A stretch of DNA of 64,000 bases, taken from the NCBI GenBank assembly GCA_965221905.1, contig OZ244922.1, positions 97,394 through 161,393 on the forward strand, in the 5' to 3' direction. This DNA comes from Chloroflexota bacterium (GTDB taxonomy: Bacteria; Chloroflexota; UBA11872; VXOZ01). Positions 31,420-43,491 of this stretch are shown here, piece after piece. The stretch's first letter is position 1, and each line of letters begins with the position of its first letter. The notes under the pieces are model-generated. The model searched no databases, was not told the DNA's origin, and saw only the letters and a list, made by a program, of their open reading frames with translations. The translations under genes were made by a program, and so were the position numbers.

Positions 31420-33027
31420 GTGGTAATAGATTCAGGCTTGGTCGGACATTGGATGTTAGACGGTAATTTTGACGATCGCTCGGGCAATGGCAATCACGGT
31501 CAAAGCAACGGAGCGGTTGCACTTACGCCGCCAAATCCGATTGCCAGCCTGCCGGGAACGGCCCAATTCGACGGTCGCAGTGCGTGCATCACGGTGCCCC
31601 ATAGCGAGACCCTGGCGCTAGGCACGGCGGACTTCTCCATGGCGGCGTGGGTGAACACGAACCGGATCACGACCGACGTGCCCGGCGATATCCTCAGCAA
31701 GTTCTGCGGCGGCACGCGGCGCGGCTTCAACTTCGGCATTCAGACCGCTGCCGGCGTGGCCTCCTCCCAAAGCAACTGGCGCAACGTCTTCTTCGGCATA
31801 GACGACGGCAAGGTGGAGCCGGGATGGACCAACAACGGCAGGCCAGGTAACGCGCAGTGCGTCATGGGCATGGCCGTGCACGAGGGCGCGCTCTACGCCG
31901 GCACCTATGAGGGCGGCGCGGGCGAGACCGGGCACGTCTACCGCTTCGCGGGCGGAACTGCTTGGGAGGACTGCGGTGCACCCGCCGACTGCAATGCCGT
32001 GAGCACGCTGGCAGTATACGACGGCGATCTTTACGCGGGGGTGAGTTGCTACCGCGCGCAGGGCTCCAGTCTGCCGGAGTCGCCGAACCGACGACCGGGC
32101 GGCAGCGTCTATCGCTATGCCGGGGGCAAGGAGTGGGTGGACTACGGCCAACTCGGTGACGCCGAGGACGTGTTCGGCTTGGCGGTCTACAACGGCGAAC
32201 TCTACGGCTCGGCCATGTACTCTGCGGGCATGTTCAAATACGCGGGCGGCAAGACCTGGCTGCCCTGCGGCGACCCGGGCACGCGAGTCGCGGTGCTGGG
32301 CGTCTTCCAAGGCGGTCTCTATGCCACGGGCTACGACGTGGGCGGCGTCTTCCGCTACGAGGGCGCACAACACTGGTCCTTCTGCGGGAATGCGAGCGCT
32401 TCAACCCAGCTCTATTCGTTTGCGTCGTATCAGGGCCTACTCCATACCGGTGTGTGGCCCAGCGGGTCCGTATACCGCCAGGAAGACGGCCTGCCTTGGC
32501 TCGATTGCGGACGCTTGGGCGAGGAGCTGGAAGTCATGGGCATGATGGTCTACAACGGGAAGCTCTACGCCGGCACGCTGCCTACAGGTTCCGTATATCG
32601 CTACGACGGTGAGGGCGAGTGGGTGTCCACGGGTCAACTCGACACCACGCCGGACGTCAAATACCGTCGCGCCTGGACCATGGCGGTCTACCAGGGCCGC
32701 CTCTTCTGCGGCACGCTGCCGTCAGGGAACGTGCTCTCGCTGGAGGGCGGCAAAAATGTGACCCACGACCATGCGCTGCCAGGCGGCTGGCATCACTTGG
32801 CGGCCGTCCGCGCCGACGACGTGTTGCGGCTGTACGTTGACGGCGCGCTGGTAGCAACGTCCGCGCCGTTCAACGCCGCCGATTACGACCTTTCAACCGA
32901 GGAGCCGCTGCACATCGGCTTCGGCGCCATCGGCCACTTCAGCGGCAGTCTGGGTGATGTGCGGCTCTACAACCGGGCGCTGAGCGATGCGGAGGTTGAG
33001 CAAGTCTTCGAGAGACCACGTCTATGA
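31420..33027 (+). CDS. LamG-like (concanavalin-type lectin) protein interrupted by about 8 YAG/beta-propeller-like repeats
   Basis: 535 aa; N-terminus LVGHWMLDGNFDDRSGNGNHG...FSMAAWV and C-terminus WHHLAAVRADDVLRLYVDGALV...GSLGDVRLYNRALSDAEV form two halves of one LamG_3-type domain; repeated VYRYAGG..W.DCG / LYAG(T) motifs between them; no signal peptide. Confidence 0.6.
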   Translation: MVIDSGLVGHWMLDGNFDDRSGNGNHGQSNGAVALTPPNPIASLPGTAQFDGRSACITVPHSETLALGTADFSMAAWVNTNRITTDVPGDILSKFCGGTRRGFNFGIQTAAGVASSQSNWRNVFFGIDDGKVEPGWTNNGRPGNAQCVMGMAVHEGALYAGTYEGGAGETGHVYRFAGGTAWEDCGAPADCNAVSTLAVYDGDLYAGVSCYRAQGSSLPESPNRRPGGSVYRYAGGKEWVDYGQLGDAEDVFGLAVYNGELYGSAMYSAGMFKYAGGKTWLPCGDPGTRVAVLGVFQGGLYATGYDVGGVFRYEGAQHWSFCGNASASTQLYSFASYQGLLHTGVWPSGSVYRQEDGLPWLDCGRLGEELEVMGMMVYNGKLYAGTLPTGSVYRYDGEGEWVSTGQLDTTPDVKYRRAWTMAVYQGRLFCGTLPSGNVLSLEGGKNVTHDHALPGGWHHLAAVRADDVLRLYVDGALVATSAPFNAADYDLSTEEPLHIGFGAIGHFSGSLGDVRLYNRALSDAEVEQVFERPRL

Positions 33028-33184: not shown

Positions 33185-33781
33185 CTACGTGGCGGCGGTG
33201 GTGCTAATCTTCGATTCTCGCCTCCGCATCCGCTCTCGTTGGACTCGCTTGTTTGCACCGGTTGCGTTGATACGCCACCTAAGCATCGCTTCACTCGCGC
33301 CAAGGCGTTCCCGAGCTTCTTGCTCTGTGAATTTGCCTCGCGCGACAGCGAGTGCCATGTCAGAGGTGACCAGCAACTCGCCACCAAGCCAATTTGCTTC
33401 CTCTTCCCTACCATCATTCCAATTCCTGCATCCCGTCGACGGGTCAAGAGCGGGTTCAGGTTCGTGGAGTAGGAGGGCGTGGGCCAGTTCATGTGCCAAA
33501 TCACTATTCTGCCGAACCTTGGAGTGAGAATCGTTGTGGACGATTATCCTGCGATGACCGTCAAAGACGGTGAGAGCGGAGAATGCCTCCTGCTCTTCTG
33601 AAAGGAAATACTGAATTCTGGCCGAATCGGGTACGAGGCGGCTCAGCGGCTCAACAGGAATCTCTAAGTGTTGGGCAAGGCCGAGAGGGTCGAGGCCATC
33701 GAGCGGCCCAAGCCCAAGTTCAGCCCTGACTTCCAAAGCCAATTTGGTTGCTTCAGACTTGAATCCCCTTCGAAGTTTCAC
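33185..33781 (-). CDS. ImmA/IrrE-family Zn metallopeptidase (CapP-like)
   Basis: 198 aa; HEXXH motif in DLAHELAHALLLHEP; GTG start 3 nt after the HTH gene stop. Confidence 0.75.
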   Translation of the reverse strand: MKLRRGFKSEATKLALEVRAELGLGPLDGLDPLGLAQHLEIPVEPLSRLVPDSARIQYFLSEEQEAFSALTVFDGHRRIIVHNDSHSKVRQNSDLAHELAHALLLHEPEPALDPSTGCRNWNDGREEEANWLGGELLVTSDMALAVARGKFTEQEARERLGASEAMLRWRINATGANKRVQRERMRRRESKISTTAAT

Positions 33782-33784
33782 CAG

Positions 33785-34144
33785 CTACTCCTGTTTTCTC
33801 AGTCGCTGATAGGTCAGCTTTACTACCTCATCAAGTGTTGCCGCTGCTTCCGGCGTCAGGTTCTTGTCGCTTCTGAGGTAGGTCGAAATCATCGCCAGGG
33901 GCTCGGGCTCGCCTTGCTTGTTCTCAGAACGTACAAAGTCGTCTGCCTTGAGCCCAGACCAAGACACCAGCGCGGCTAGTCCATCGACATCCGGCCTCTT
34001 TCCTTGGGCCATTCTCGTCAGAGTCGAAGCGCTGACCCCCGACTGGGCGGCGACTTCCTTCCAGTTGAGGTTCCTTGACCTGCGCGTTGCGTCCAGTGCC
34101 TCGTAAAATCCCTTGCTGTCGAATTTCCCGTGCTTCTGGTCCAT
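33785..34144 (-). CDS. XRE-family helix-turn-helix transcriptional regulator (CapH-like)
   Basis: About 119 aa from MDQKHGKF; HTH LNWKEVAAQSGVSASTLTRMAQGKRPDVDGLAALVSW. Confidence 0.75.
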   Translation of the reverse strand: MDQKHGKFDSKGFYEALDATRRSRNLNWKEVAAQSGVSASTLTRMAQGKRPDVDGLAALVSWSGLKADDFVRSENKQGEPEPLAMISTYLRSDKNLTPEAAATLDEVVKLTYQRLRKQE

Positions 34145-34161
34145 CTGGGCCTCCCTATGGG

Positions 34162-34190
34162 TTGCAATTCTCAAAACGACCACCTATAAT
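34162..34190 (+). promoter_or_regulatory. Near-consensus sigma70-type promoter TTGCAA-N17-TATAAT facing the Ubl operon, with flanking inverted repeat ggttgc...gcaacc
   Basis: ttgcaa at 34162-34167, tataat at 34185-34190; inverted repeat at 34160-34166 and 34207-34213; about 55 bp upstream of the ATG at 34246. Confidence 0.5.
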
Positions 34191-34245
34191 AGAATTATTG
34201 GTTAGCAACCGAACACCGCAATAGCAATCGAAAGGATTGTACCAC

Positions 34246-34494
34246 ATGAATGGCGATACGCAAATCTACGTGAGCGGCCGAGAGCATAAAGTCTCAGGTA
34301 ATGTCGTGAGCTACGAGCAGATCGTGAAGATCTGGAACGAGCTGCACAAGACTGAGAACAAGCACATCATTGGCACGCCCGGCATCGACTACGAAGACGA
34401 CCTGAAAGGTGAGGACGGTGTCCTCCAGCAAGGCAAAGACGTTAGAGTCAAGGACGGCACGAGTTTCTCTGTCGACCCGGAACATGTCTCGTAA
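34246..34494 (+). CDS. Small beta-grasp ubiquitin-like protein (Mub/ThiS-like), first gene of the operon
   Basis: 82 aa; pattern I.VSG....VSG..VSYEQI....T.....I......YE....G.DG.L..GKDV.VKDGTSF resembles E1/E2-associated multiubiquitin-type Ubl domains; AAAGGA RBS; stop overlaps the next gene start by 11 nt. Confidence 0.5.
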   Translation: MNGDTQIYVSGREHKVSGNVVSYEQIVKIWNELHKTENKHIIGTPGIDYEDDLKGEDGVLQQGKDVRVKDGTSFSVDPEHVS

Positions 34495-35671
34495 GGACCG
34501 CCTCACTGCGTTCGGCGAGCAGGCCGGGTTTGGCGTCAAAGTCGAATCCGATTTAGTGCGGGCCGTACAGGTTCCGTGTCTCCTTTCAGACTGCTCTGTC
34601 GGCACTTGCACTATTGAGACGTCTTACAATCCCGCCAGCGGGAAACCGGACAGAAAGATCGGCGGGGACGTACATGCAGTGCGGATCACAATCAACGAAG
34701 AGTGCGACGGGCGCGTGTACCACGCAGATGGAACACCAATCGGGAACTACGTCGACGGTGACGACAAGACCTGGTCGAACATTTCAATCAAGAAAGGGTG
34801 GCAAGGAAGTCCCGAGGAAGACGCGACGGCAAGCGACTTGATCCACCGCTATGCGAAGCACATCGTAGGGGCAGTGTCGGCTGCCGGATACTCTGGGACC
34901 AATTTTCTTGCAAAGCCCGGTCCGTTCAAGATCCCCAACACTTTTGAGGCGCGGGCAGCGATAGGTCCAGTGCAAGACCGCATCCGTGATCAACGTATTG
35001 CGATCATCGGACTGGGTGGTACGGGTGCTTACGTCCTAGACCTCATGGCGAAGACGCCGGTGTCGGAAATCCATCTTCTGGATGCCGACTTTGTTGATTG
35101 GCACACCTTCATGCGGGCCCCCGGCGCACCTACTACCGAGGAGATTGAATCGCGGCGAAAAGAACGTTCGCGAAAAGTAGCTTACTACTATTCCAAGTAC
35201 GAGTCACTCCGCGAAGGCATATTCGTGCACGAAATTCGAGTGGACAGCGCCACAGTTTTCAATGAGTTTCTGTCGGACCATCCCATCGACTATGCCTTTG
35301 TGTGTATCGACCAACTGACCGAAGGTGATTCGCCGCGTCAGGATGTAGTGTACTGTGCGCTCTCTGAGGCGTGGGTTCCGTTCATAGATTCGGGCGTGAG
35401 CATTACGGTGGAGAACTCCGCCGTTAGCGGCGCGGTGACGACAAACTCCTTTGACGCGGGCTCTGTGGCGTGGAAGAAAAACATACCGAATGCTAGAGTC
35501 GAGGGCAACATGCCGGGCTATCGCAACATTCAACTGCCGGAAGTGAACGCGCTTGCGGCGGCACTCGCTGTGATGGAGTGGCGGCGGCGCACTGGGCAGT
35601 ATGTTTCGGAGTCAGAATCGTCTCTCCATAAGTTGCGATTTAAGAAGCCGGACATTTTATGTGTGAAATGA
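34484..35671 (+). CDS. Fusion of an N-terminal E2-like domain with a C-terminal E1-like ThiF/MoeB adenylyltransferase
   Basis: 395 aa; Rossmann motif RIAIIGLGGTGAYVLDLMAKT...HLLDADFVD (GxGxxG plus DxD) typical of ThiF/E1; N-terminal about 170 aa with conserved-looking HAVRITINEEC (His about 10 residues before Cys, UBC-like). Confidence 0.65.
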   Translation: MSRKDRLTAFGEQAGFGVKVESDLVRAVQVPCLLSDCSVGTCTIETSYNPASGKPDRKIGGDVHAVRITINEECDGRVYHADGTPIGNYVDGDDKTWSNISIKKGWQGSPEEDATASDLIHRYAKHIVGAVSAAGYSGTNFLAKPGPFKIPNTFEARAAIGPVQDRIRDQRIAIIGLGGTGAYVLDLMAKTPVSEIHLLDADFVDWHTFMRAPGAPTTEEIESRRKERSRKVAYYYSKYESLREGIFVHEIRVDSATVFNEFLSDHPIDYAFVCIDQLTEGDSPRQDVVYCALSEAWVPFIDSGVSITVENSAVSGAVTTNSFDAGSVAWKKNIPNARVEGNMPGYRNIQLPEVNALAAALAVMEWRRRTGQYVSESESSLHKLRFKKPDILCVK

Positions 35672-35689
35672 CCTGCGAGGGTAAATGCC

Positions 35690-36106
35690 TTGAAGCTCCA
35701 TCCCATCTTTGTGGAGATTATGCCCGATTTCGACGCAATCAAAGATGGCGAGCTTTGGATCAGCCACAAGCATCGGACAATAAATCTGCGCTGTCCATAT
35801 GGCTGTGGCGAATTGACGGTGCTGTCCCTCCACCCCAGTCGATGGCACGTTTACTTCGATGGGAAGTCGGTCTCCCTTGACGGTCCAACGGGTGGGTCCG
35901 TGTGGGCTAGATCCTGCTGTGGTAGCCACTACAAAATTCTAAACAACATTGTGATTTGGTTGGAAGGGATCGATCCAGGTCGCCATTCGGAGTATGCGGA
36001 TGGCGAGCGGACCCGCATGCTTGGCTCAACCTCGAATGGTCAGACTCTTCGTTCATGGCTCAGACGCATATGGCATGTTATGTCGTTGGGCAGTTGGCCT
36101 AAGTAG
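35690..36106 (+). CDS. Cys-rich small protein (CxxC ... CCxxH), probable Zn-binding, third operon gene (possibly DUF6527-like)
   Basis: 128-138 aa; CPYGCGE and SCCGSHY motifs; likely ATG at 35720 after GGAG; 19 nt after the E1 stop. Confidence 0.45.
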   Translation: MKLHPIFVEIMPDFDAIKDGELWISHKHRTINLRCPYGCGELTVLSLHPSRWHVYFDGKSVSLDGPTGGSVWARSCCGSHYKILNNIVIWLEGIDPGRHSEYADGERTRMLGSTSNGQTLRSWLRRIWHVMSLGSWPK

Positions 36107-36257: not shown

Positions 36258-37127
36258 TTAACCTCCCAGTTTGGATCGTATACCTTCCTCGAACTCAGTC
36301 AAAGTAACGGGAGAGCCACCCGTCAGTCCCTCGGTGGCCCTCTCAAGTGTCGTGATGTGGACACTATCCCTAACAAGCTTAAAGCGTCTGCCGTCGTCGA
36401 CTTCTTGGAAGTCTACAGTAAACCACGCTATGTCCCCGTTGGACAGGTCGCCAACCTCCTCCATATGCCCAAGGGATTCGAAGAAGTGCTTGTCAACCAC
36501 TACTGCCATCTTCTTGCCCCATCGACGGAGCGTAGGCACTTTGATCTGCAACTGGGGCATTAGACGCTTCGGGCCGCTACTCCGATAGTCAGGTCGCCGT
36601 ATCTGTCTCGGAAAGGGCGGGTGTTCTCCATCATAATCCCTGATGTACCGGAACTCTTCACTCATGCTCCTGCCGGAAAAGTAGACAGCTTGAATCTCCA
36701 AGGCGCACCAATTGAGCGCTGCCGAACAGGTCTCCTGATCTGCCAGAACCATGTCTATTCGCCCTACGTCGGTGTTTCCATCCTCTGCCCTCAGGAAGCC
36801 AATCTCGGTGGCTATGTCGGGTGCGGAAGTGCCCAAGACAGTTTCACCCACCCATTGAAAGATCGTCTTGTCCTCTTCAAATCGCCGTGGACAGAGCACC
36901 CTCAGTCCGGCCTCCGCACCCGATTCAGGTATTGCTACACCGTCGGAATCTTCGTACGATCTGAATGAACAAACACCTCCCCTCTTTGTGCATTGTCCTC
37001 CACCCATGCGAAAGGGGCATGGGTGGGAACCGGTTCCAGCGGAGTATGCGCGCCGTTCGTCTTGCGTCAAACCGACGAATGAATGTCCGTACCACTCCCC
37101 TATGCCAAAGCGTCGAGGCCGAGTCAT
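36258..37127 (-). CDS. Candidate type II restriction endonuclease with N-terminal Cys-cluster
   Basis: 289 aa; start overlaps the methyltransferase stop (ATGA); N-terminal HPCPFRMGGGQCTKRGGVCSF cluster; candidate PD-(D/E)xK-like segment IDMVLAD...ALEIQ. Confidence 0.45.
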   Translation of the reverse strand: MTRPRRFGIGEWYGHSFVGLTQDERRAYSAGTGSHPCPFRMGGGQCTKRGGVCSFRSYEDSDGVAIPESGAEAGLRVLCPRRFEEDKTIFQWVGETVLGTSAPDIATEIGFLRAEDGNTDVGRIDMVLADQETCSAALNWCALEIQAVYFSGRSMSEEFRYIRDYDGEHPPFPRQIRRPDYRSSGPKRLMPQLQIKVPTLRRWGKKMAVVVDKHFFESLGHMEEVGDLSNGDIAWFTVDFQEVDDGRRFKLVRDSVHITTLERATEGLTGGSPVTLTEFEEGIRSKLGG

Positions 37128-38080
37128 GGTGTTAGCTCGCGGGATGTGATGAGTAACTCGTACATCACCGCGTGGTGCGTATTCTTCATTGGAATCTTGG
37201 CCAGGTGGAATCCTCGCCTGAGCGCCATGTCAACTACGTCGGGACTCTCGTCGTAGGTCATCATGAAAACGCCTCGTACCCGCGACATACGCTCGAACAG
37301 GTTCTCGTGGTCGATCTCGTTGTACGTATACAGACGCCTTCCCGCCCGCTTGCCCGCGGCGGTGTAGGGAGGGTCGATGAAGAACGCGGCTGCCACGTTG
37401 TCCTTGCACAATTCTACGAGGCCCACACCATCTCCCTGGAAGAAGTCGAATCGCTCGGCATAGTTCCCTATGGCGCGAATGCGGGCTGCTAGAGTGTCGG
37501 CGTACCAGCGGGAGGAGATTCCATGGCCGTTCTCTCCCTGCTTCATCACCGAGGCGCCCTTGGCCATGATGCCACCCCGACTGACCCTATTCCGCAACAG
37601 GGTCTGAAAGGCGGCGTCCATTCCGGATGCCCCGGCATCCTCGAACACAGTGCTCACGTTCTCTGAAGTCGCTACGAAACCTTCGACGCGCCGAGCAAGT
37701 TCCTCGGCGTCATCGAGCATGCACTGCCAGAGATTGGATATGTCCGGGTCCCTCTCGCATAGCACTGCACGATCCACATAACTGTCCATGACAGCCGTTA
37801 GGGATGCGATTCCGCCACCAGCAAACGGTTCAACGAAAACTTCTGGGCGGAAGTCGAGCCCTGCCAGAAACCTCCGTATTTCGGGCACAAGCCATGTCTT
37901 GCCGCCTGGATAGCGCAAAGGGCTTCGCTGCGGAACCGACGAGACGTTTACGGCCGTGTCGGATAGCACCGGAATCGCTTGCGCGACTTTCAGTTCGGCG
38001 GCGCCTTTGGCCCGCTCCTCCGTAAGAGAGGTCGCGTCGCTTTGGTTGAATGTGAATAAGTCTGTTCGAGGTTCCGTCAT
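37124..38080 (-). CDS. Dam-family (D12 class) N6-adenine DNA methyltransferase
   Basis: 318 aa; SAM motif LRYPGGKTWL and catalytic FFIDPPY. Confidence 0.8.
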   Translation of the reverse strand: MTEPRTDLFTFNQSDATSLTEERAKGAAELKVAQAIPVLSDTAVNVSSVPQRSPLRYPGGKTWLVPEIRRFLAGLDFRPEVFVEPFAGGGIASLTAVMDSYVDRAVLCERDPDISNLWQCMLDDAEELARRVEGFVATSENVSTVFEDAGASGMDAAFQTLLRNRVSRGGIMAKGASVMKQGENGHGISSRWYADTLAARIRAIGNYAERFDFFQGDGVGLVELCKDNVAAAFFIDPPYTAAGKRAGRRLYTYNEIDHENLFERMSRVRGVFMMTYDESPDVVDMALRRGFHLAKIPMKNTHHAVMYELLITSRELTP

Positions 38081-39858: not shown

Positions 39859-40096
39859 GAGAGTTTGCTCCGCAGCAACGGAACGTGGTGGCAGGCGCGA
39901 AGTTCAAGCGTTCGCTGCCGGCGATTCGAACTGATGGAGGACTGAACCTCTCAGCCGAAAGACGTTCAACGCTGCCGTTCCTCGGCGACGAGTCGATCCT
40001 AGGAGCAGCCTGCCCGCCGGCCCAAATGATCAACTTTCTATCTGTCTGTTTTCACTGCAAACGCAGTTCTAGAGTGCGACGTGAAAATCATCGGGC

Positions 40097-41374
40097 TCAC
40101 TTGAATCGGCTAAGACCTGACTGGTCGACCAAAAGGCCAAAGAGCTTTCGTTCTCCACTGCTACCAGGGACGTATTCTTCCGAAGTGAATTTGCCGTCTT
40201 CTAGCTCAATCTTCTCAAATACGTCGCAAAACACCTCACGCAACACAATCTCTCCCCTTCTTTCCTGAGAATTGTACGCTATCCTCATAAAGCGCATTAG
40301 TGCTCCAAATCCCGTCGTGCGATTGAGAATGTTACCTCTAAATACATGGTCCCAGGAATTGGGCCACTTTGCTTGAACTGCCAAGAAATAGTTCCAAAGT
40401 ATAAGTGCTATATTGACATCCACTTCATTTATGAACCAATTTCTGAAAATCTGCCAATCAGTGTCCTTGCCGGAAATCCGGCTTAACTTTCTTCCGCGTC
40501 GCAGAGTATCACGATCGCCCATCGGATCTCTCGAAATGTACCTCAGCAAACGATCCACAAAAGTAGCCTGAGTTATAGTCTCTTGATCCTTTCCACTGCC
40601 CGTGCCCAGCATCTTCACTTTGGAGAAAAACGGACTTCCTCGCCTGTAGTTCAAGAATCGCACTATGTCGTGAGCCGTTCGCTGAGGACTACGGGTCTTA
40701 GTGAATTCGTACAAGTCATATGCCAAGGACTTGTTGACCTTGGTCTGTTTCAGATTGATCGTAGCAAACACCATAGCTTGATCCTGCAAATCCATATCAA
40801 TAAACACCGACACATTCACATCAAACTGGGGGCCTTCATACCCCTTCAGACCAGCAATGCGATGCTGTCCATCGATAATCTTTGCAGCCTTGCAATGACG
40901 GTCAATCGATATCGTAGAAGTCTCCTCATCATAGGAGGCTTGGTTGGACGACACTGCGATCAAGACCGAAGTGGGGAACGCGGCATCCTGGGTTCCAACA
41001 TATTGTCGGATCTCCTTAACTCTTCTTTGGCTCAGCTCTCTTTGTATTCCCAAGAATTCTTCAAAGTCTTGTTCATCAGCATTGAGGAATGCCTTGTCCA
41101 TTTCTTCGATCACTGAGTCGTCAACTTGGGAGGAGTCAATACTCGGCAGCAGGGGGACTTCTCCTTGGGGAGAAGCGGAATCTCCGATATCGCCTGCAAT
41201 CCTACGAATGTCTGCCCAAGCAATGTCTACAAGATCAGATGCACACATGGTGCCAATGTAGAAAGTCCCTATCGGTTGGGTTACTGGCAAACACGGGAAC
41301 TTGACTTTCGAATGGTCCTCAGTCATTGTAGGGCCTCTAGAATTCTCAACTAGTGATTTTAGGTCTGAGAGCAT
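40097..41374 (-). CDS. DGQHR-domain protein (DndB-like, ParB/sulfiredoxin-type fold)
   Basis: 425 aa; signature IIDGQHRIAG; GC about 47%. Confidence 0.8.
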   Translation of the reverse strand: MLSDLKSLVENSRGPTMTEDHSKVKFPCLPVTQPIGTFYIGTMCASDLVDIAWADIRRIAGDIGDSASPQGEVPLLPSIDSSQVDDSVIEEMDKAFLNADEQDFEEFLGIQRELSQRRVKEIRQYVGTQDAAFPTSVLIAVSSNQASYDEETSTISIDRHCKAAKIIDGQHRIAGLKGYEGPQFDVNVSVFIDMDLQDQAMVFATINLKQTKVNKSLAYDLYEFTKTRSPQRTAHDIVRFLNYRRGSPFFSKVKMLGTGSGKDQETITQATFVDRLLRYISRDPMGDRDTLRRGRKLSRISGKDTDWQIFRNWFINEVDVNIALILWNYFLAVQAKWPNSWDHVFRGNILNRTTGFGALMRFMRIAYNSQERRGEIVLREVFCDVFEKIELEDGKFTSEEYVPGSSGERKLFGLLVDQSGLSRFK

Positions 41375-41380
41375 GTCTGG

Positions 41381-41941
41381 CTATGTAGGGTCGTCTTCCA
41401 GTGACCGCTGCTCGCGATTGAACTCCTCTTCGAGCTTTCCTTGTCGGTTAGACCGTTCTTCCGCAACATTGAGTTCGTTGTATGCATTCTCGTGAACGTC
41501 CACGAAGAATGTCGCCGTCAGCGCGACAAGATAGATTGTGATGCTTAAAGTACGAAGAAAGGGAACGTTAATGTGTAAGTCACCTATTCTCAATGAATCT
41601 ACCACTGTCAGCCCGCTAAAAATTCCTGCAGCCACTATCAAACAGATTAGTATCAGCCACAGGTATAGTATCTTCTCTTGCCCCGATTCCCTTTTAAACA
41701 ATGGATACAGGATTGGCGATAGCGCCGCAGCAGCGTAGATAGCAAATTGGCCATTGTCGAGAAAGGTACCAAAAGCGATTGGCTGGCTGATCAAGAGTAG
41801 CAGCAAGACACTAAGCCAGACAGGCATTAGAGCTCCCATGGCGTAAAAGCCAATCGATAGCAGGGCATGCAGATAGTGCTCTTTCCGAGCCTGAGTGAGG
41901 ATGATCTTGAGCATCTTCAGGCTTTCTCCTGTGTAGGCCAT
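41381..41941 (-). CDS. Polytopic small membrane protein, hypothetical
   Basis: 186 aa; 4-5 TM helices; overlaps the upstream methyltransferase by 25 nt; low GC. Confidence 0.5.
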   Translation of the reverse strand: MAYTGESLKMLKIILTQARKEHYLHALLSIGFYAMGALMPVWLSVLLLLLISQPIAFGTFLDNGQFAIYAAAALSPILYPLFKRESGQEKILYLWLILICLIVAAGIFSGLTVVDSLRIGDLHINVPFLRTLSITIYLVALTATFFVDVHENAYNELNVAEERSNRQGKLEEEFNREQRSLEDDPT

Positions 41942-43068
41942 TTGAGAATGTATAGGTACTCATGGGCCAATAGGAATCCATCGGAGGACCAAAAATAGAA
42001 CTCGCTTGATCGATCACGGTGTTGAGTCTTGACTACTATGTCTTCAAGTTGAAATCCGGCCTTTGTGAAGGCGTCAAGGGTCCTAGCGCCTAGTGGAATG
42101 ATCTGCCCATTTCGCCTCACGTCACCGATCAATACTGCGCAAACGTTATTGGAGGCCAAGTAAGGAGTAGCGCCTTCAGCAAAGGTGGTGATACGTTCAA
42201 GGAAATCCCCAGGTTCTTTAATCTGCGACAAGTCTTCAGGAAGCCCGTTGGTGTAGGTCAATGCATCAAGATATGGAGGATGTACGCACAGCAAGTTGAC
42301 AGTGCCGGGTCGAATGTCATTGTAAGTAGCGCTGTCTTTTGCAAAGGTGGAATCTCCAAAAATGAGCTGAGGCCTATAGTGTGATTCAATCCTTGCACGG
42401 CTGTCCTGCTTAGATAATAATTCCATGCGCTCCAAGCGGGCGGAGGCGGTTTGGTGAGCTAGCTTGCTAACGTCGATGCCAACGCTGTGTCTGTTCAAGA
42501 GCCATGCCTCGATAAGAGTCGTTCCACCACCCATGAAGGCGTCCAAGACTAATTCTCCAGGCTTCGTGTACTTCAGTATGATGTTCCTTACCAATTGTGG
42601 TGGCCAGTTGCCTCGGTAGTCTCCAATGTGCACAGCCCAGCTTCCACGATTAGGAAAATCCCATAAAGTGGTTGTCTCTAACTTGAAATCAGGAGGTTCC
42701 CAAGTTCTGACGGACAAAATGGGCGGAGGGGCATACTTGTTGTCTCCTCGCTCTACTGAGGACCTGATTGCACGATCGATGACAGTCCATGAAAACAACA
42801 ACTGGCCATTCCCGGATTGAAACAGTTGCATGATCTTCTTTAGCGAAAGGCCATGGCGACGGAAATCAATAAAGAGCCCAACCCAGGTTGTCCACTCTTC
42901 GATATGGCTCTTTTTCATGTGGGGAACAATAGATCTCTTGAGGTGCTCTCCACAGAAACAGACAACGACTCGTTTACTTCCTACTTTTATAACACGGACC
43001 GAGTCAAGGAGTTTTGGACGGAGGCTGTTAGGGTCGAAGGAACAATCGGTATGATCCGGCTTAACCAT
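41917..43068 (-). CDS. DNA methyltransferase (N6-adenine/N4-cytosine, PF01555-like) with N-terminal Cys/His zinc-finger-like segment
   Basis: 383 aa; SAM-binding LVLDAFMGGGTT then catalytic LLCVHPPY; N-terminus C..C.C....H.....H. Confidence 0.75.
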   Translation of the reverse strand: MVKPDHTDCSFDPNSLRPKLLDSVRVIKVGSKRVVVCFCGEHLKRSIVPHMKKSHIEEWTTWVGLFIDFRRHGLSLKKIMQLFQSGNGQLLFSWTVIDRAIRSSVERGDNKYAPPPILSVRTWEPPDFKLETTTLWDFPNRGSWAVHIGDYRGNWPPQLVRNIILKYTKPGELVLDAFMGGGTTLIEAWLLNRHSVGIDVSKLAHQTASARLERMELLSKQDSRARIESHYRPQLIFGDSTFAKDSATYNDIRPGTVNLLCVHPPYLDALTYTNGLPEDLSQIKEPGDFLERITTFAEGATPYLASNNVCAVLIGDVRRNGQIIPLGARTLDAFTKAGFQLEDIVVKTQHRDRSSEFYFWSSDGFLLAHEYLYILKWPTQEKA

Positions 43069-43491
43069 GAGACACTCCTTGCAGCCTCGTGTATCTCTGT
43101 CTGTGCCAAGTGAGTACTTGCAGTAATATAGCCCAACAAGGCGGTGTCTACAAGCTGTGAGCTAGTCCCAGACCTTCATTGATTAGTCCCCTATAAGACG
43201 GCGGCCTGAGAGGATTATGCAGACGGCCTAGAGAATCCGTTTCCGGTACCACTTGCCCCAATGGAATGGCGAAGGACTGGGGAAAGCTTGGCCCACCGGC
43301 GATATGTTTTAGCCCTTTAATGGGAGCCGACACATGCGCTCCCTTACAGAGTACCCTCCAGCGTTCGAGGAACAGAACAGTACGCATAGCCCCCTTAAGG
43401 CCAGCGTAAAGCGCAGCCGCAAGCCTGGGGGCAAAGCGCATGGCGTCGGCAACGTCACTTGCAACTGCTGAGATAGTATAGAGCGCGTCGC

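What the first reader, a model, noticed from the sequence alone, without database searches (positions are those of the whole stretch)
33185..36106. Candidate ubiquitin-like conjugation (Bil/Bub-like) operon with a divergent CapH/CapP-like regulator pair and an extra Cys-rich gene
A three-gene plus-strand operon with overlapping or near-overlapping starts runs across a lower-GC segment. Its genes are an 82-aa beta-grasp Ubl-like protein, a 395-aa fusion of an E2-like domain (His-x-x-Asn...Cys) to a ThiF/E1 adenylation domain (GLGGTG...DADFVD), and a 128-aa Cys-rich protein (CPYGCGE / SCCGSHY). On the other strand lies an HTH-XRE regulator tightly coupled to an ImmA/IrrE Zn-metallopeptidase (HELAH). 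That pair is the arrangement known to gate CBASS and other anti-phage systems in response to DNA damage. The divergent intergenic region holds a near-consensus promoter flanked by an inverted repeat. The presence of an E2 domain and the absence of a JAB/DUB gene distinguish this from sulfur-carrier ThiF/MoeB systems. The Ubl has no C-terminal Gly-Gly (it ends ...DPEHVS), and the third gene has no assigned role here, so this may be an undescribed variant.
Basis: partly seen in the sequence, partly recalled or inferred. Interest (0 to 1): 0.85.

Follow-up and report, generated by a model that had tools for sequence, protein, structure and literature searches.

The report
Type II Bub ubiquitin-like conjugation operon
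This is a real, intact copy of an already described bacterial ubiquitin-like protein-tagging system (a "Type II Bub" operon) with its usual damage-responsive repressor/protease pair, so it is a new member of a known family, not a new kind of system.

Summary
All five genes exist at the stated coordinates. They are a CapP-like ImmA/IrrE metallopeptidase and a CapH-like HTH repressor on the minus strand. Divergent from them are bubA (82-aa Multi_ubiq Ubl), bubBD (395-aa E2-E1 fusion) and bubE (DUF6527, 138 aa from a TTG start, not 128).

This is the gene set of Type II Bub (formerly 6E.2/DUF6527) operons described by Ye, Gong, Chambers and Corbett (bioRxiv 2024; PDB 9ea4-9eav). They report CapH+CapP beside 31% of 544 Bub operons.

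- Type II BubA proteins end in Ser, not Gly-Gly.
- No JAB gene is expected.
- The "Cys-rich" gene is BubE, a Zn-binding Ser-His peptidase.
- The E2 works through Ser, not Cys.

The window carries the published catalytic set: E2 H64/S101/K103, E1 R211 and crossover-loop Y346, BubE S70/H80.

About 40 relatives at 52-79% identity occur in uncultured-bacterium genomes of many phyla, always bubA-bubBD-bubE. Local peculiarities are a divergent E2 domain, a CapP-like protein without a GAF domain, and a displaced zinc-ligand Cys in BubE.

Verdict: a new member of a known kind, of modest interest. The biological role of Bub (defence?) is still unproven.

The parts
33185..33781 (-). capP-like gene: ImmA/IrrE (Peptidase_M78) Zn-metallopeptidase, 198 aa. 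It has H97-E98-xx-H101, E128, and Cys118 in the loop between them. It has no GAF domain.
   Evidence: Pfam PF06114 at 1.3e-16. PADLOC capP at 9.3e-8, covering only the peptidase part of the profile. HExxH and E126 are invariant in 19 related proteins.
33785..34144 (-). capH-like gene: XRE/HTH_3 repressor, 119 aa from the ATG at 34144. The mechanical ORF runs up to the GTG at 34183.
   Evidence: Pfam HTH_3 at 1.2e-5. PADLOC capH at 1e-3 over 23-123 of the 132-aa ORF. A GGGAGG ribosome-binding site lies before the ATG. L010 has a 99% identical protein aligned over residues 1-119.
34145..34245 (.). Divergent 101-bp control region. The sigma-70-type promoter for bubA has its -35 TTGCAA at 34162-34167 and its -10 TATAAT at 34185-34190. 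T(T/A)GCAA(T/C) motifs at 34162, 34203 and 34222 are candidate CapH operator half-sites. Weak 6-nt inverted arms lie at 34166-34171 and 34191-34196.
   Evidence: Promoter scan, 10/12 match. Direct repeat at 34203 and 34222. Both hexamers and both TAGCAA copies are conserved in L010 and L017, which carry orthologous CapH. Operator function is inferred, not shown.
34246..34494 (+). bubA: ubiquitin-like protein with a single beta-grasp (Multi_ubiq), 82 aa. Its C-terminal tail ...DGTSFSVDPEHVS ends in Ser82.
   Evidence: Pfam PF14452 at 3.1e-5, 24.5 bits, exactly at the cut-off. 318 relatives, one named 'multiubiquitin domain-containing protein'. The tail DPEHVS is identical in 42 loci and DGTSFSVDPEHVS in 36 of them. 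The terminal Ser is shared with Type II BubA of E. coli, P. aeruginosa, Spirosoma, Pacificitalea, Cytobacillus and Rhizobium.
34484..35671 (+). bubBD: E2-E1 fusion, 395 aa. Residues ~1-135 form the E2-like (UBC/RWD-fold) domain with H64, S101 (34784-34786) and K103. Residues ~153-395 form the ThiF-type adenylation domain, with GLGGTG at 176-181, D200/D202, R211, K231 and crossover-loop Y346 (35519-35521).
35690..36106 (+). bubE: DUF6527 protein, 138 aa from a TTG start. The Cys cluster is C35, C39, C76 and C77, with Tyr at the usual Cys37. The Ser-His dyad candidates are S70 (35897-35899) and H80 (35927-35929).
   Evidence: Pfam PF20137 at 3.6e-10. BLASTP to Citrobacter BubE at 1e-7 and E. coli BubE at 6e-7. 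44-sequence alignment. Function taken from Ye et al..

Best explanation

Proposed working, with each step marked as shown elsewhere or inferred here:
1. The 119-aa HTH repressor binds the 101-bp divergent control region and keeps bubA-bubBD-bubE off. This is inferred by analogy with CapH.
2. A stress signal activates the ImmA/IrrE-type metallopeptidase, which cleaves the repressor and releases transcription from the TTGCAA-17-TATAAT promoter. The signal is most likely DNA damage or phage replication. It is shown for CBASS CapH/CapP; the signal here is uncertain because this peptidase lacks the GAF domain.
3. The E1 half of BubBD adenylates the C-terminal Ser82 carboxylate of the 82-aa Ubl BubA. 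The residues involved are GLGGTG, D200/D202, R211 and K231.
4. BubA passes as an oxyester to Tyr346 on the flexible crossover loop. It then passes as an oxyester to Ser101 of the fused E2 domain, assisted by His64 and Lys103, and finally to a lysine of a target protein. This chemistry is shown for E. coli and Citrobacter Bub proteins. Here it is inferred from conserved residues.
5. BubE is a small Zn-binding Ser70/His80 peptidase. It removes BubA from targets and so limits or resets the pathway.

The targets and the benefit to the cell are unknown. An anti-phage or stress-response role is the best guess from the regulators and the adjacent restriction-modification genes.
For: Gene set and order match the published definition: Ubl, E2-E1 fusion and DUF6527, with no JAB gene, and CapH+CapP beside 31% of 544 operons.

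The same five-gene layout is annotated on plasmids of P. aeruginosa and Pacificitalea.

Catalytic residues, from a 101-sequence alignment of diverse family members plus E. coli BubBD:
- H64: 101/101.
- S101: 96 Ser plus 5 Cys.
- K103: 79 Lys plus 8 Arg.
- R211, D200, D202 and K231: 101/101.
- Family motif Y..NiQ with Tyr in 91/101. The window has GY346RNIQ, offset by one alignment column.

E1 domain:
- A profile of the family hits Citrobacter BubCD best (2.8e-10), ahead of UBA5 and MccB, and far ahead of MoeB/ThiF at ~6e-3.
- Foldseek agrees.
- Y346 lies in a low-confidence, probably mobile loop at residues 336-347.

E2 domain:
- AF2 model with pLDDT 80.6.
- hhalign to E. coli-type E2 domains gives E=2.9e-5.

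BubE: S70, C39, C77 and H80 are conserved with Citrobacter and E. coli BubE.

BubA: the final six residues DPEHVS are invariant in 42 loci, and the terminal Ser is shared across Type II BubA proteins.

Regulators: HExxH and the Glu ligand are intact, and the promoter is conserved with the orthologous repressor.

Neighbours: a NotI-family restriction enzyme and a D12 methyltransferase.
Against: - No biochemical or genetic data exist for this clade.
- Which Ser is catalytic is not fully settled. hhalign and three pairwise alignments place E. coli S106 opposite window Q107 (WQGSP vs FSxKP) instead of S101.
- NCBIfam BubBD-type models (PRK06153) match only residues 116-379 and fall below their cut-offs, so the E2 half is divergent.
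- BubA reaches Pfam's threshold only exactly, and its fold was not modelled.
- The CapP-like protein lacks the GAF domain that forms half of the ssDNA groove in canonical CapP, so a DNA-damage signal is not assured.
- BubE has lost one canonical Zn-ligand Cys (C37Y), unique among the 44 compared.
- Anti-phage activity of any Bub operon has not been demonstrated in the papers read.
- Downstream neighbours of related loci are mostly not defence genes.
Confidence: 0.8

Rival explanations
1. The biochemistry is the same (Bub conjugation), but the role is not anti-phage defence. It could be a DNA-damage or general stress-response module, or a module that benefits a mobile element. Conjugation of BubA might change the activity or assembly of host proteins.
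For: No phage-protection data for Bub appear in the papers read. The authors themselves say future work may need to look beyond anti-phage immunity. Downstream neighbours in 36 related loci are mostly housekeeping genes, and only a minority are restriction-modification or other defence genes. CapH/CapP-like pairs also control DNA-damage regulons and mobile elements.
Against: In the window the operon sits in a lower-GC stretch next to a restriction-modification pair, with a second methyltransferase/DGQHR island 4 kb away. CapH/CapP and CapW regulators are typical of immune operons. The plasmid examples lie beside DarT/macro, HipA and nuclease genes.
Confidence: 0.25
2. The operon is decaying or deregulated in this genome. 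The C37Y change in BubE removes a zinc ligand, so the deconjugating peptidase is impaired and the system is inactive or mis-regulated.
For: The window's BubE is the only one of 44 with Tyr at the CPCGCG position.
Against: All three reading frames are intact with conserved starts and overlaps. A second, equally unique change, G76C, puts a new Cys next to ligand C77. That looks like compensation, not decay. S70 and H80 are intact. E. coli BubE as transcribed from the paper's supplement also shows fewer Cys.
Confidence: 0.1
3. A cysteine/thioester-based system of the Bil or Type II CBASS Cap2 kind, as the first reader's 'E2 ... Cys' implied.
For: The protein is an E2-E1 fusion like Cap2. PADLOC 'E1-E2' models give weak hits of ~1e-5, and 18 of the 19 cover only ~40-60 residues at the start of the ThiF region. 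Five of 101 family members carry Cys at the S101 column.
Against: There is no JAB/Cap3 gene and no CD-NTase nearby. There is no Cys in the crossover loop (residues 320-350). The E2-domain Cys residues are clade-specific, not family-wide. A DUF6527 gene and a Multi_ubiq Ubl are present, and these define Bub, not Bil or CBASS.
Confidence: 0.03
4. A ThiF/MoeB-type sulfur-carrier activation system, with BubA as a ThiS/MoaD-like carrier.
For: Pfam names only ThiF for the large protein. Weak NCBIfam hits to ThiF and MoeB at 1e-7 to 1e-4.
Against: The family profile scores Bub E1 and UBA5 some 7 orders of magnitude better than MoeB or ThiF. There is no Gly-Gly terminus, and there are no rhodanese, ThiG/ThiH or MoaE partners among the neighbouring genes. 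A fused E2-like domain and a dedicated peptidase are present.
Confidence: 0.02

Closest known systems
Type II Bub operon (6E.2 / DUF6527), e.g. E. coli ZDHYS365 BubA-BubBD-BubE (Ye, Gong, Chambers, Corbett, bioRxiv 10.1101/2024.11.21.623953)
   Same: - Gene order Ubl, then E2-E1 fusion, then DUF6527, with no JAB gene.
- Overlapping genes.
- E2 His/Ser/Lys, adenylation Arg and crossover-loop Tyr.
- BubE Ser/His plus a Cys cluster.
- The Ubl ends in Ser.
- A divergent HTH plus ImmA pair.
   Different: - Only 32% identity, and only over the E1 half.
- The E2 domain is so divergent that most family representatives and the NCBIfam models do not align to it.
- BubA has one beta-grasp domain (82 aa) where E. 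coli has three.
- The tail is VDPEHVS, not T(P/Q)TDKS.
- The BubE zinc ligand is displaced.
- The hosts are uncultured lineages absent from the published table, which is based on IMG genomes and mostly names cultured species.
[quoted passage not shown]
   Different: In Type I the E2 is fused to the Ubl and a JAB peptidase is fused to the E1. The mature Ubl ends in Gly after JAB cleavage. The E2 helper residues are His plus Asp, not Lys plus His.
CapH + CapP regulators of CBASS (E. coli MS115-1, Thauera sp. K11)
   Same: - An HTH repressor and an HExxH M78 peptidase encoded as a tightly coupled pair, divergent from the controlled operon.
- H97/E98/H101/E128 carry the same numbering as E. coli CapP.
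- A Cys lies in the loop between them.
   Different: The peptidase is 198 aa against at least 272 aa. It has no GAF domain, so half of the ssDNA-binding groove is missing, and it carries a basic C-terminal tail in its place. Matches to the PADLOC capH and capP models are weak (1e-3 and 9e-8). In size it is closer to ImmA/ImmR-type pairs of mobile elements.
Bil (bacterial ISG15-like) operons, Type I/II
   Same: A ubiquitin-like protein conjugated by E1 and E2 homologues. Bil is linked to anti-phage defence.
   Different: Bil has separate E1 and E2 proteins, a catalytic-Cys domain in the E1, a JAB deubiquitinase, thioester chemistry and no DUF6527 gene.
Type II CBASS Cap2 (E2-E1 fusion) / Cap3
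   Same: The E2 is fused N-terminally to a ThiF-type E1. CapH/CapP regulation is common.
   Different: Cap2 uses Cys residues and conjugates the CD-NTase itself. It has no separate Ubl and no DUF6527 gene, and a JAB Cap3 is present. No CD-NTase is found here.

Membership tests
Type II Bub (6E.2/DUF6527) operon | Three co-directional genes: Ubl (BubA), E2-E1 fusion (BubBD) and DUF6527 protein (BubE), with no JAB/JAMM peptidase | tested here: met
   Pfam finds Multi_ubiq, ThiF and DUF6527 in that order, and no JAB in the region. The same order holds in every related genome locus that retains all three genes.
Type II Bub (6E.2/DUF6527) operon | BubBD C-terminal half is an E1 adenylation domain with the invariant Arg (R219 in E. 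coli) and no catalytic Cys, but an invariant Tyr in the crossover loop (Y342 in E. coli) | tested here: met
   R211 is 101/101. The family motif Y..NiQ has Tyr in 91/101, and the window has GY346RNIQ. There is no Cys in residues 320-350. Best PDB profile hit is Citrobacter BubCD at 2.8e-10. Caveat: the held text of the E. coli sequence is imperfect around Y342, so the equivalence rests on the family consensus.
Type II Bub (6E.2/DUF6527) operon | BubBD N-terminal half has a UBC/E2-like fold | tested here: met
Type II Bub (6E.2/DUF6527) operon | E2 active site: invariant Ser (S106 in E. coli) with invariant His and Lys, and no catalytic Cys | tested here: met
   H64 is 101/101, S101 is 96 Ser plus 5 Cys, and K103 is 79 Lys plus 8 Arg. 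The window motif I-S-I-K aligns with F-S-N-K. S101 is present in all ten full-length or near-full-length relatives of the window clade examined. Caveat: hhalign and pairwise alignments shift E. coli S106 to window Q107. A residue-level structural superposition was not possible.
Type II Bub (6E.2/DUF6527) operon | BubE: DUF6527 fold with an invariant Ser-His dyad and a four-Cys zinc site | tested here: met
   Pfam PF20137 at 3.6e-10. H80 is present in 44/44 aligned sequences and S70 in 41/44, with gaps in the E. coli-type sequences where the alignment is ambiguous. C35, C39 and C77 are present. The fourth ligand position, 37, is Tyr here, with a new Cys at 76.
Type II Bub (6E.2/DUF6527) operon | BubA is a beta-grasp Ubl whose free C-terminus is the conjugated end (a terminal Ser in the Type II examples) | tested here: inconclusive
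   The Pfam Multi_ubiq score sits exactly at the cut-off (24.5 bits). BLASTP to the third beta-grasp of E. coli BubA gives E=0.008 in a six-sequence database. The terminal Ser and the spacing after the last strand are shared with six other Type II BubA proteins. The fold was not modelled, and no PDB sequence hit was found.
Type II Bub (6E.2/DUF6527) operon | ATP-dependent BubA conjugation through Tyr and Ser oxyester intermediates, with deconjugation by BubE | not testable with these tools
   Shown only for the Citrobacter and E. coli proteins.
CapH + CapP regulator pair | HTH repressor and HExxH Zn-metallopeptidase encoded together, upstream of and divergent from the regulated operon | tested here: met
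   HTH_3 at 1.2e-5 and Peptidase_M78 at 1.3e-16. The genes are 3 nt apart on the minus strand, and a 101-bp divergent region holds the promoter. H97, E98, H101 and E126 are invariant in 19 relatives.
CapH + CapP regulator pair | [quoted passage not shown] | tested here: not met
   The protein is 198 aa, against at least 272 residues in canonical CapP. The PADLOC capP match covers only profile positions 34-113 of 242. Pfam finds only the peptidase domain.
CapH + CapP regulator pair | Cysteine-switch loop (present in about a third of CapP proteins) | tested here: inconclusive
   Cys118 lies between HExxH and E128. A Cys occurs in this loop in most related proteins, though at shifted positions. 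No structure was modelled.
CapH + CapP regulator pair | ssDNA- or DNA-damage-stimulated cleavage of the repressor | not testable with these tools
   Known for E. coli MS115-1 CapH/CapP.
Bil (bacterial ISG15-like) operon | Separate E1 (IAD-AAD-CYS) and E2 proteins plus a JAB peptidase | tested here: not met
   The E2 is fused to a single-adenylation-domain E1. There is no JAB gene, and DUF6527 is present in its place.
ThiF/MoeB sulfur-carrier system | Carrier protein ending in Gly-Gly, a sulfur-transfer partner, and an E1 closest to MoeB/ThiF | tested here: not met
   The tail DPEHVS is invariant. There is no rhodanese and there are no thiamine or molybdopterin genes among the neighbours. MoeB and ThiF score ~6e-3, against 2.8e-10 for Bub E1.
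Type II CBASS (Cap2/Cap3) | A CD-NTase substrate gene, catalytic Cys residues and a JAB Cap3 | tested here: not met
   No CD-NTase or JAB was found among the ORFs of 30-39.5 kb or among the PADLOC hits.

The most novel reading that the evidence does not exclude
The window belongs to a distinct, uncatalogued clade of Type II Bub. Its features are:
- A strongly divergent E2 domain, with a clade-specific Cys32/Cys42 pair and an extra loop after the catalytic Ser.
- A minimal one-domain Ubl whose last six residues (DPEHVS) are frozen across at least 8 phyla.
- A GAF-less CapP-like protease.

This compact cassette has spread recently by horizontal transfer among uncultured, apparently sponge-associated bacteria. 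It may recognise a different target or respond to a different signal from the characterised E. coli and Citrobacter systems.
Probability: 0.2. Interest if true: 0.5.

Novelty: new member of a known kind. Interest (0 to 1): 0.3.

Why it matters
Bub operons are the most diverged bacterial relatives of eukaryotic ubiquitination. They are the only ones known to run on oxyester (Tyr/Ser) intermediates where the others use thioesters. Their biological role is still unproven.

This locus does not change that picture. It does add three things:
- A clean, minimal example: an 82-aa one-domain Ubl, a 395-aa E2-E1 fusion and a 138-aa peptidase.
- Evidence that the same cassette, with 52-79% identical proteins, sits in genomes of many bacterial phyla, which indicates frequent horizontal transfer.
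- Natural variation that could guide experiments: the invariant DPEHVS tail, a displaced zinc ligand in BubE, and regulator modules swapped independently of the enzyme cassette.

Tried and rejected
- Single-sequence PDB searches were barely informative for BubBD (Citrobacter BubCD only at E 0.53) and found nothing for BubA. A narrow BubA profile also found nothing. Only the diverse BubBD profile worked.
- Foldseek on the full-length model saw only the E1 half. Foldseek on the E2-only model gave no significant match.
- The exact-protein contig look-up for BubBD returned nothing, so the source organism was not identified.
- There is no tRNA, no Rfam family and no integrase that would delimit a mobile element.
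- No close relative was found in viral contigs, so there is no sign that this clade is phage-borne.
- The published Table S1 holds no Chloroflexota, Acidobacteriota, Gemmatimonadota or sponge entries.
- The E. coli and Citrobacter sequences taken from the paper's supplementary PDF are imperfect. Numbering is off by 2 at R219, Y342 is unreadable and Citrobacter BubCD is 11 residues short. I therefore did not rely on them for residue numbering beyond S106.
- A bubBD-bubE read-through fusion was considered, because the two genes are in the same frame here. I dropped it because the frame relation is not conserved in related loci.

Full report
**1. What is in the sequence**

- On the minus strand are a 198-aa ImmA/IrrE peptidase (33185-33781; Pfam Peptidase_M78, 1.3e-16) and, 3 nt upstream of it, an HTH_3 protein.
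- The HTH protein's mechanical ORF starts at 34183. The ATG at 34144 follows a GGGAGG ribosome-binding site and gives 119 aa, the length matched end to end by a 99% identical protein in locus L010.
- On the plus strand, bubA (ATG 34246 to 34494, 82 aa) overlaps bubBD (ATG 34484 to 35671, 395 aa) by 11 nt.
- The third gene follows bubBD after 18 nt. The ten extra residues are conserved as protein in 39 related loci.
- The 82-, 395- and 138-aa products are all present with exactly these sequences in the public protein collection.
- GC is 0.53-0.57 here, against 0.65-0.67 just upstream.
- The 101-bp divergent region holds TTGCAA-17-TATAAT at 34162-34190, a 10/12 match.
- The claimed inverted repeat is only a pair of 6-nt arms. 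The repeat finder reports a direct repeat TAGCAA(C/T)CGAA at 34203 and 34222 and no inverted repeat.

**2. What the genes are**

- Pfam assigns Multi_ubiq to the 82-aa protein (3.1e-5, exactly at the cut-off), ThiF to residues 188-303 of the 420-aa ORF that contains bubBD, and DUF6527 to the third protein (3.6e-10).
- The literature search for DUF6527 leads to two 2024 preprints from the Corbett laboratory.
- Ye et al. rename the '6E/DUF6527' operons Bub (bacterial ubiquitination-like). [quoted passage not shown] They find CapH+CapP next to 168 of 544 Bub operons.
- They show that Bub enzymes have no catalytic cysteines. The E1 passes the Ubl to a crossover-loop Tyr, and the E2 uses a Ser helped, in Type II, by an invariant Lys and His (E. 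coli BubBD R219, Y342, S106).
- BubE is a Zn-binding peptidase with a Ser-His dyad that removes BubA conjugates in cells.
- The window therefore has precisely the published Type II Bub layout.

**3. Membership tests**

*E1 half of BubBD*
- BLASTP of the window BubBD against the E. coli ZDHYS365 BubBD sequence from the paper's Table S2 gives 32% identity, E=2e-31, over residues 119-379.
- An exhaustive HMMER search of 1.84 billion representatives found 774 relatives.
- I aligned 99 full-length representatives with the window and E. coli proteins. Residue counts are:
  - H64: 101/101.
  - S101 column: 96 Ser and 5 Cys.
  - K103: 79 Lys and 8 Arg.
  - D200, D202, R211 and K231: 101/101.
  - Family motif Y..NiQ with Tyr in 91/101. 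The window has GY346RNIQ, one column off in the alignment.
- There is no Cys in the crossover region.
- A profile of 56 diverse members hits Citrobacter BubCD best in the PDB (2.8e-10). UBA5 (4e-9) and MccB follow, and MoeB/ThiF reach only ~6e-3.
- An AF2 model of the full protein (pLDDT 73) matches UBA5 and BubCD by Foldseek at ~2e-10. It places Y346 in a low-confidence loop at 336-347, as expected for a mobile crossover loop.

*E2 half of BubBD*
- This half is divergent. Most representatives and the NCBIfam PRK06153 models align only from about residue 115 onward.
- A separate AF2 model of residues 1-140 has pLDDT 80.6.
- Foldseek on the same model was not significant.
- hhalign between the window-clade E2 alignment and an E. 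coli-type E2 alignment gives E=2.9e-5, probability 74%. It pairs H64 with E. coli H66.
- One ambiguity remains. hhalign and three pairwise alignments put E. coli S106 opposite window Q107 (WQGSP vs FSxKP). The multiple alignment pairs it with S101 (ISIK vs FSNK).
- I favour S101 for three reasons. It is the only Ser conserved throughout the window clade. It keeps the S-x-K spacing. The WQGSP segment is absent from several clade members.

*BubE*
- The window protein aligns with Citrobacter and E. coli BubE (1e-7 and 6e-7). It keeps S70, H80, C35, C39 and C77.
- Uniquely among 44 sequences it has Tyr at Cys position 37 and Cys at the usual Gly position 76.

*BubA*
- The final six residues DPEHVS are identical in all 42 related loci, and the thirteen-residue tail DGTSFSVDPEHVS in 36 of them.
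- Type II BubA proteins of E. coli, P. aeruginosa, Spirosoma, Pacificitalea, Cytobacillus and Rhizobium also end in Ser at the same distance from the last strand (...T(P/Q)TDKS and variants).
- The missing Gly-Gly is therefore a family trait.

**4. Regulators**

- The peptidase has H97-E98-xx-H101 and E128, the same numbering as E. coli MS115-1 CapP. It has Cys118 in the intervening loop, where canonical CapP carries its 'cysteine switch'.
- It is only 198 aa, against at least 272 aa for canonical CapP. It lacks the GAF domain that forms half of the ssDNA-binding groove.
- 'CapH/CapP-like' is therefore fair, but strict membership is not met, and the activating signal is inferred.
- By tblastn, 16 of the 44 related loci show recognisable homologues of both CapH and CapP (two more show CapP only). 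At least 14 of the other 19 examined carry a more distant HTH plus HExxH pair, or a fusion of the two.
- L010 shares CapH at 99% identity, CapP at 89% and the promoter region with the window, although its BubBD is only 73% identical. Regulator and enzyme modules recombine independently.

**5. Distribution and context**

- The 44 genome loci are metagenome-assembled genomes. They include Dehalococcoidia, other Chloroflexota, Latescibacterota, Longimicrobiales and other Gemmatimonadota, Vicinamibacterales and other Acidobacteriota, Binatia, Alpha- and Gammaproteobacteria and 'Poriferihabitaceae'. Full-length BubBD matches are 52-77% identical, and one genome has three copies.
- The order bubA-bubBD-bubE is kept in every locus that retains all three genes.
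- More distant relatives (about 30-46% identity) lie on about 126-128 plasmids. There they are annotated as 'multiubiquitin domain-containing protein / ThiF family adenylyltransferase / DUF6527 family protein', in some cases with the same divergent HTH/ImmA pair.
- No close relative is found in viral contigs.
- In the window the operon is followed, convergently, by a NotI-family endonuclease and a D12 adenine methyltransferase.
- In related loci the downstream genes are mixed: some Type I and Type II restriction-modification genes and mad2, but many housekeeping genes.

**6. How it most likely works**

See the best explanation for the full sequence. In outline:
- A repressor/protease switch releases transcription.
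- BubBD adenylates BubA Ser82 and relays it through Tyr346 and Ser101 oxyesters to target lysines.
- BubE deconjugates.

The chemistry is shown for the E. coli and Citrobacter homologues and is inferred here from conserved residues. The biological outcome is unknown.

**7. Verdict**

- The proposed novelty is not there. Every 'odd' feature is part of the published description of Type II Bub.
- The locus is a new member of a known kind, from a clade not listed in the published catalogue.
- It has a divergent E2 domain, a GAF-less CapP-like protease and a displaced zinc ligand in BubE as local peculiarities.

Noticed in passing
window 35798-35800 and 35915-35917 (bubE codons 37 and 76): The window's BubE is the only one of 44 compared with Tyr replacing the second Cys of CPCGCG and with Cys replacing Gly in SGCGSH. 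Each change needs one nucleotide substitution. This may be a compensated move of a zinc ligand, or early decay.
   Followed up: partly
L010:4705-5780 versus window 33185-34260: A Chloroflexota MAG shares CapH at 99% identity, CapP at 89% and the intergenic promoter with the window. Its BubBD is only 73% identical. The regulator pair and the Bub cassette seem to recombine as separate modules.
   Followed up: partly
window 36258-38080 (-): A NotI-family restriction endonuclease (Pfam 7.1e-68) overlaps by 4 nt a D12-class N6-adenine methyltransferase (PADLOC PD-Lambda-5_B, 4.5e-43). The pair is convergent with bubE and lies in the same lower-GC stretch.
   Followed up: partly
window 40000-43100 (-): A second, sharper low-GC island (46-50% GC) carries three genes: a DGQHR/DndB-like protein (40097-41374, TIGR03187 3.7e-54), a 186-aa predicted membrane protein (41381-41941, no family) and an N6/N4 DNA methyltransferase (41917-43068). 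It looks like another DNA-modification or defence module.
   Followed up: partly
window 33185-33350 (C-terminal ~55 residues of the CapP-like protein): The ImmA-like peptidase ends in a short helical segment and a strongly basic tail (RVQRERMRRRESK) where canonical CapP has a GAF domain. The tail might substitute for the missing half of the nucleic-acid-binding groove. This is speculation.
   Followed up: no
L004, L006, L041 (one Latescibacterota MAG, contig CBDCJO010000002.1): One genome carries three copies of the cassette. In L006 bubA is truncated (only residues 43-82 match) and a 474-aa ORF lies just upstream.
   Followed up: no
window 34577-34609 (bubBD codons 32-42): Cys32 and Cys42 are invariant in the window's close relatives (59 sequences), but are Tyr and Gly in most of the wider family. 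They form a clade-specific Cys pair in two adjacent predicted strands of the E2 domain, of unknown meaning.
   Followed up: partly
window 31420-33027 (+): Immediately upstream of the island lies a 535-aa protein with a C-terminal LamG/concanavalin-like domain (Pfam Laminin_G_3, 1.8e-18) and a Gly/Tyr-rich repetitive N-terminal part, in a 65-67% GC stretch.
   Followed up: no
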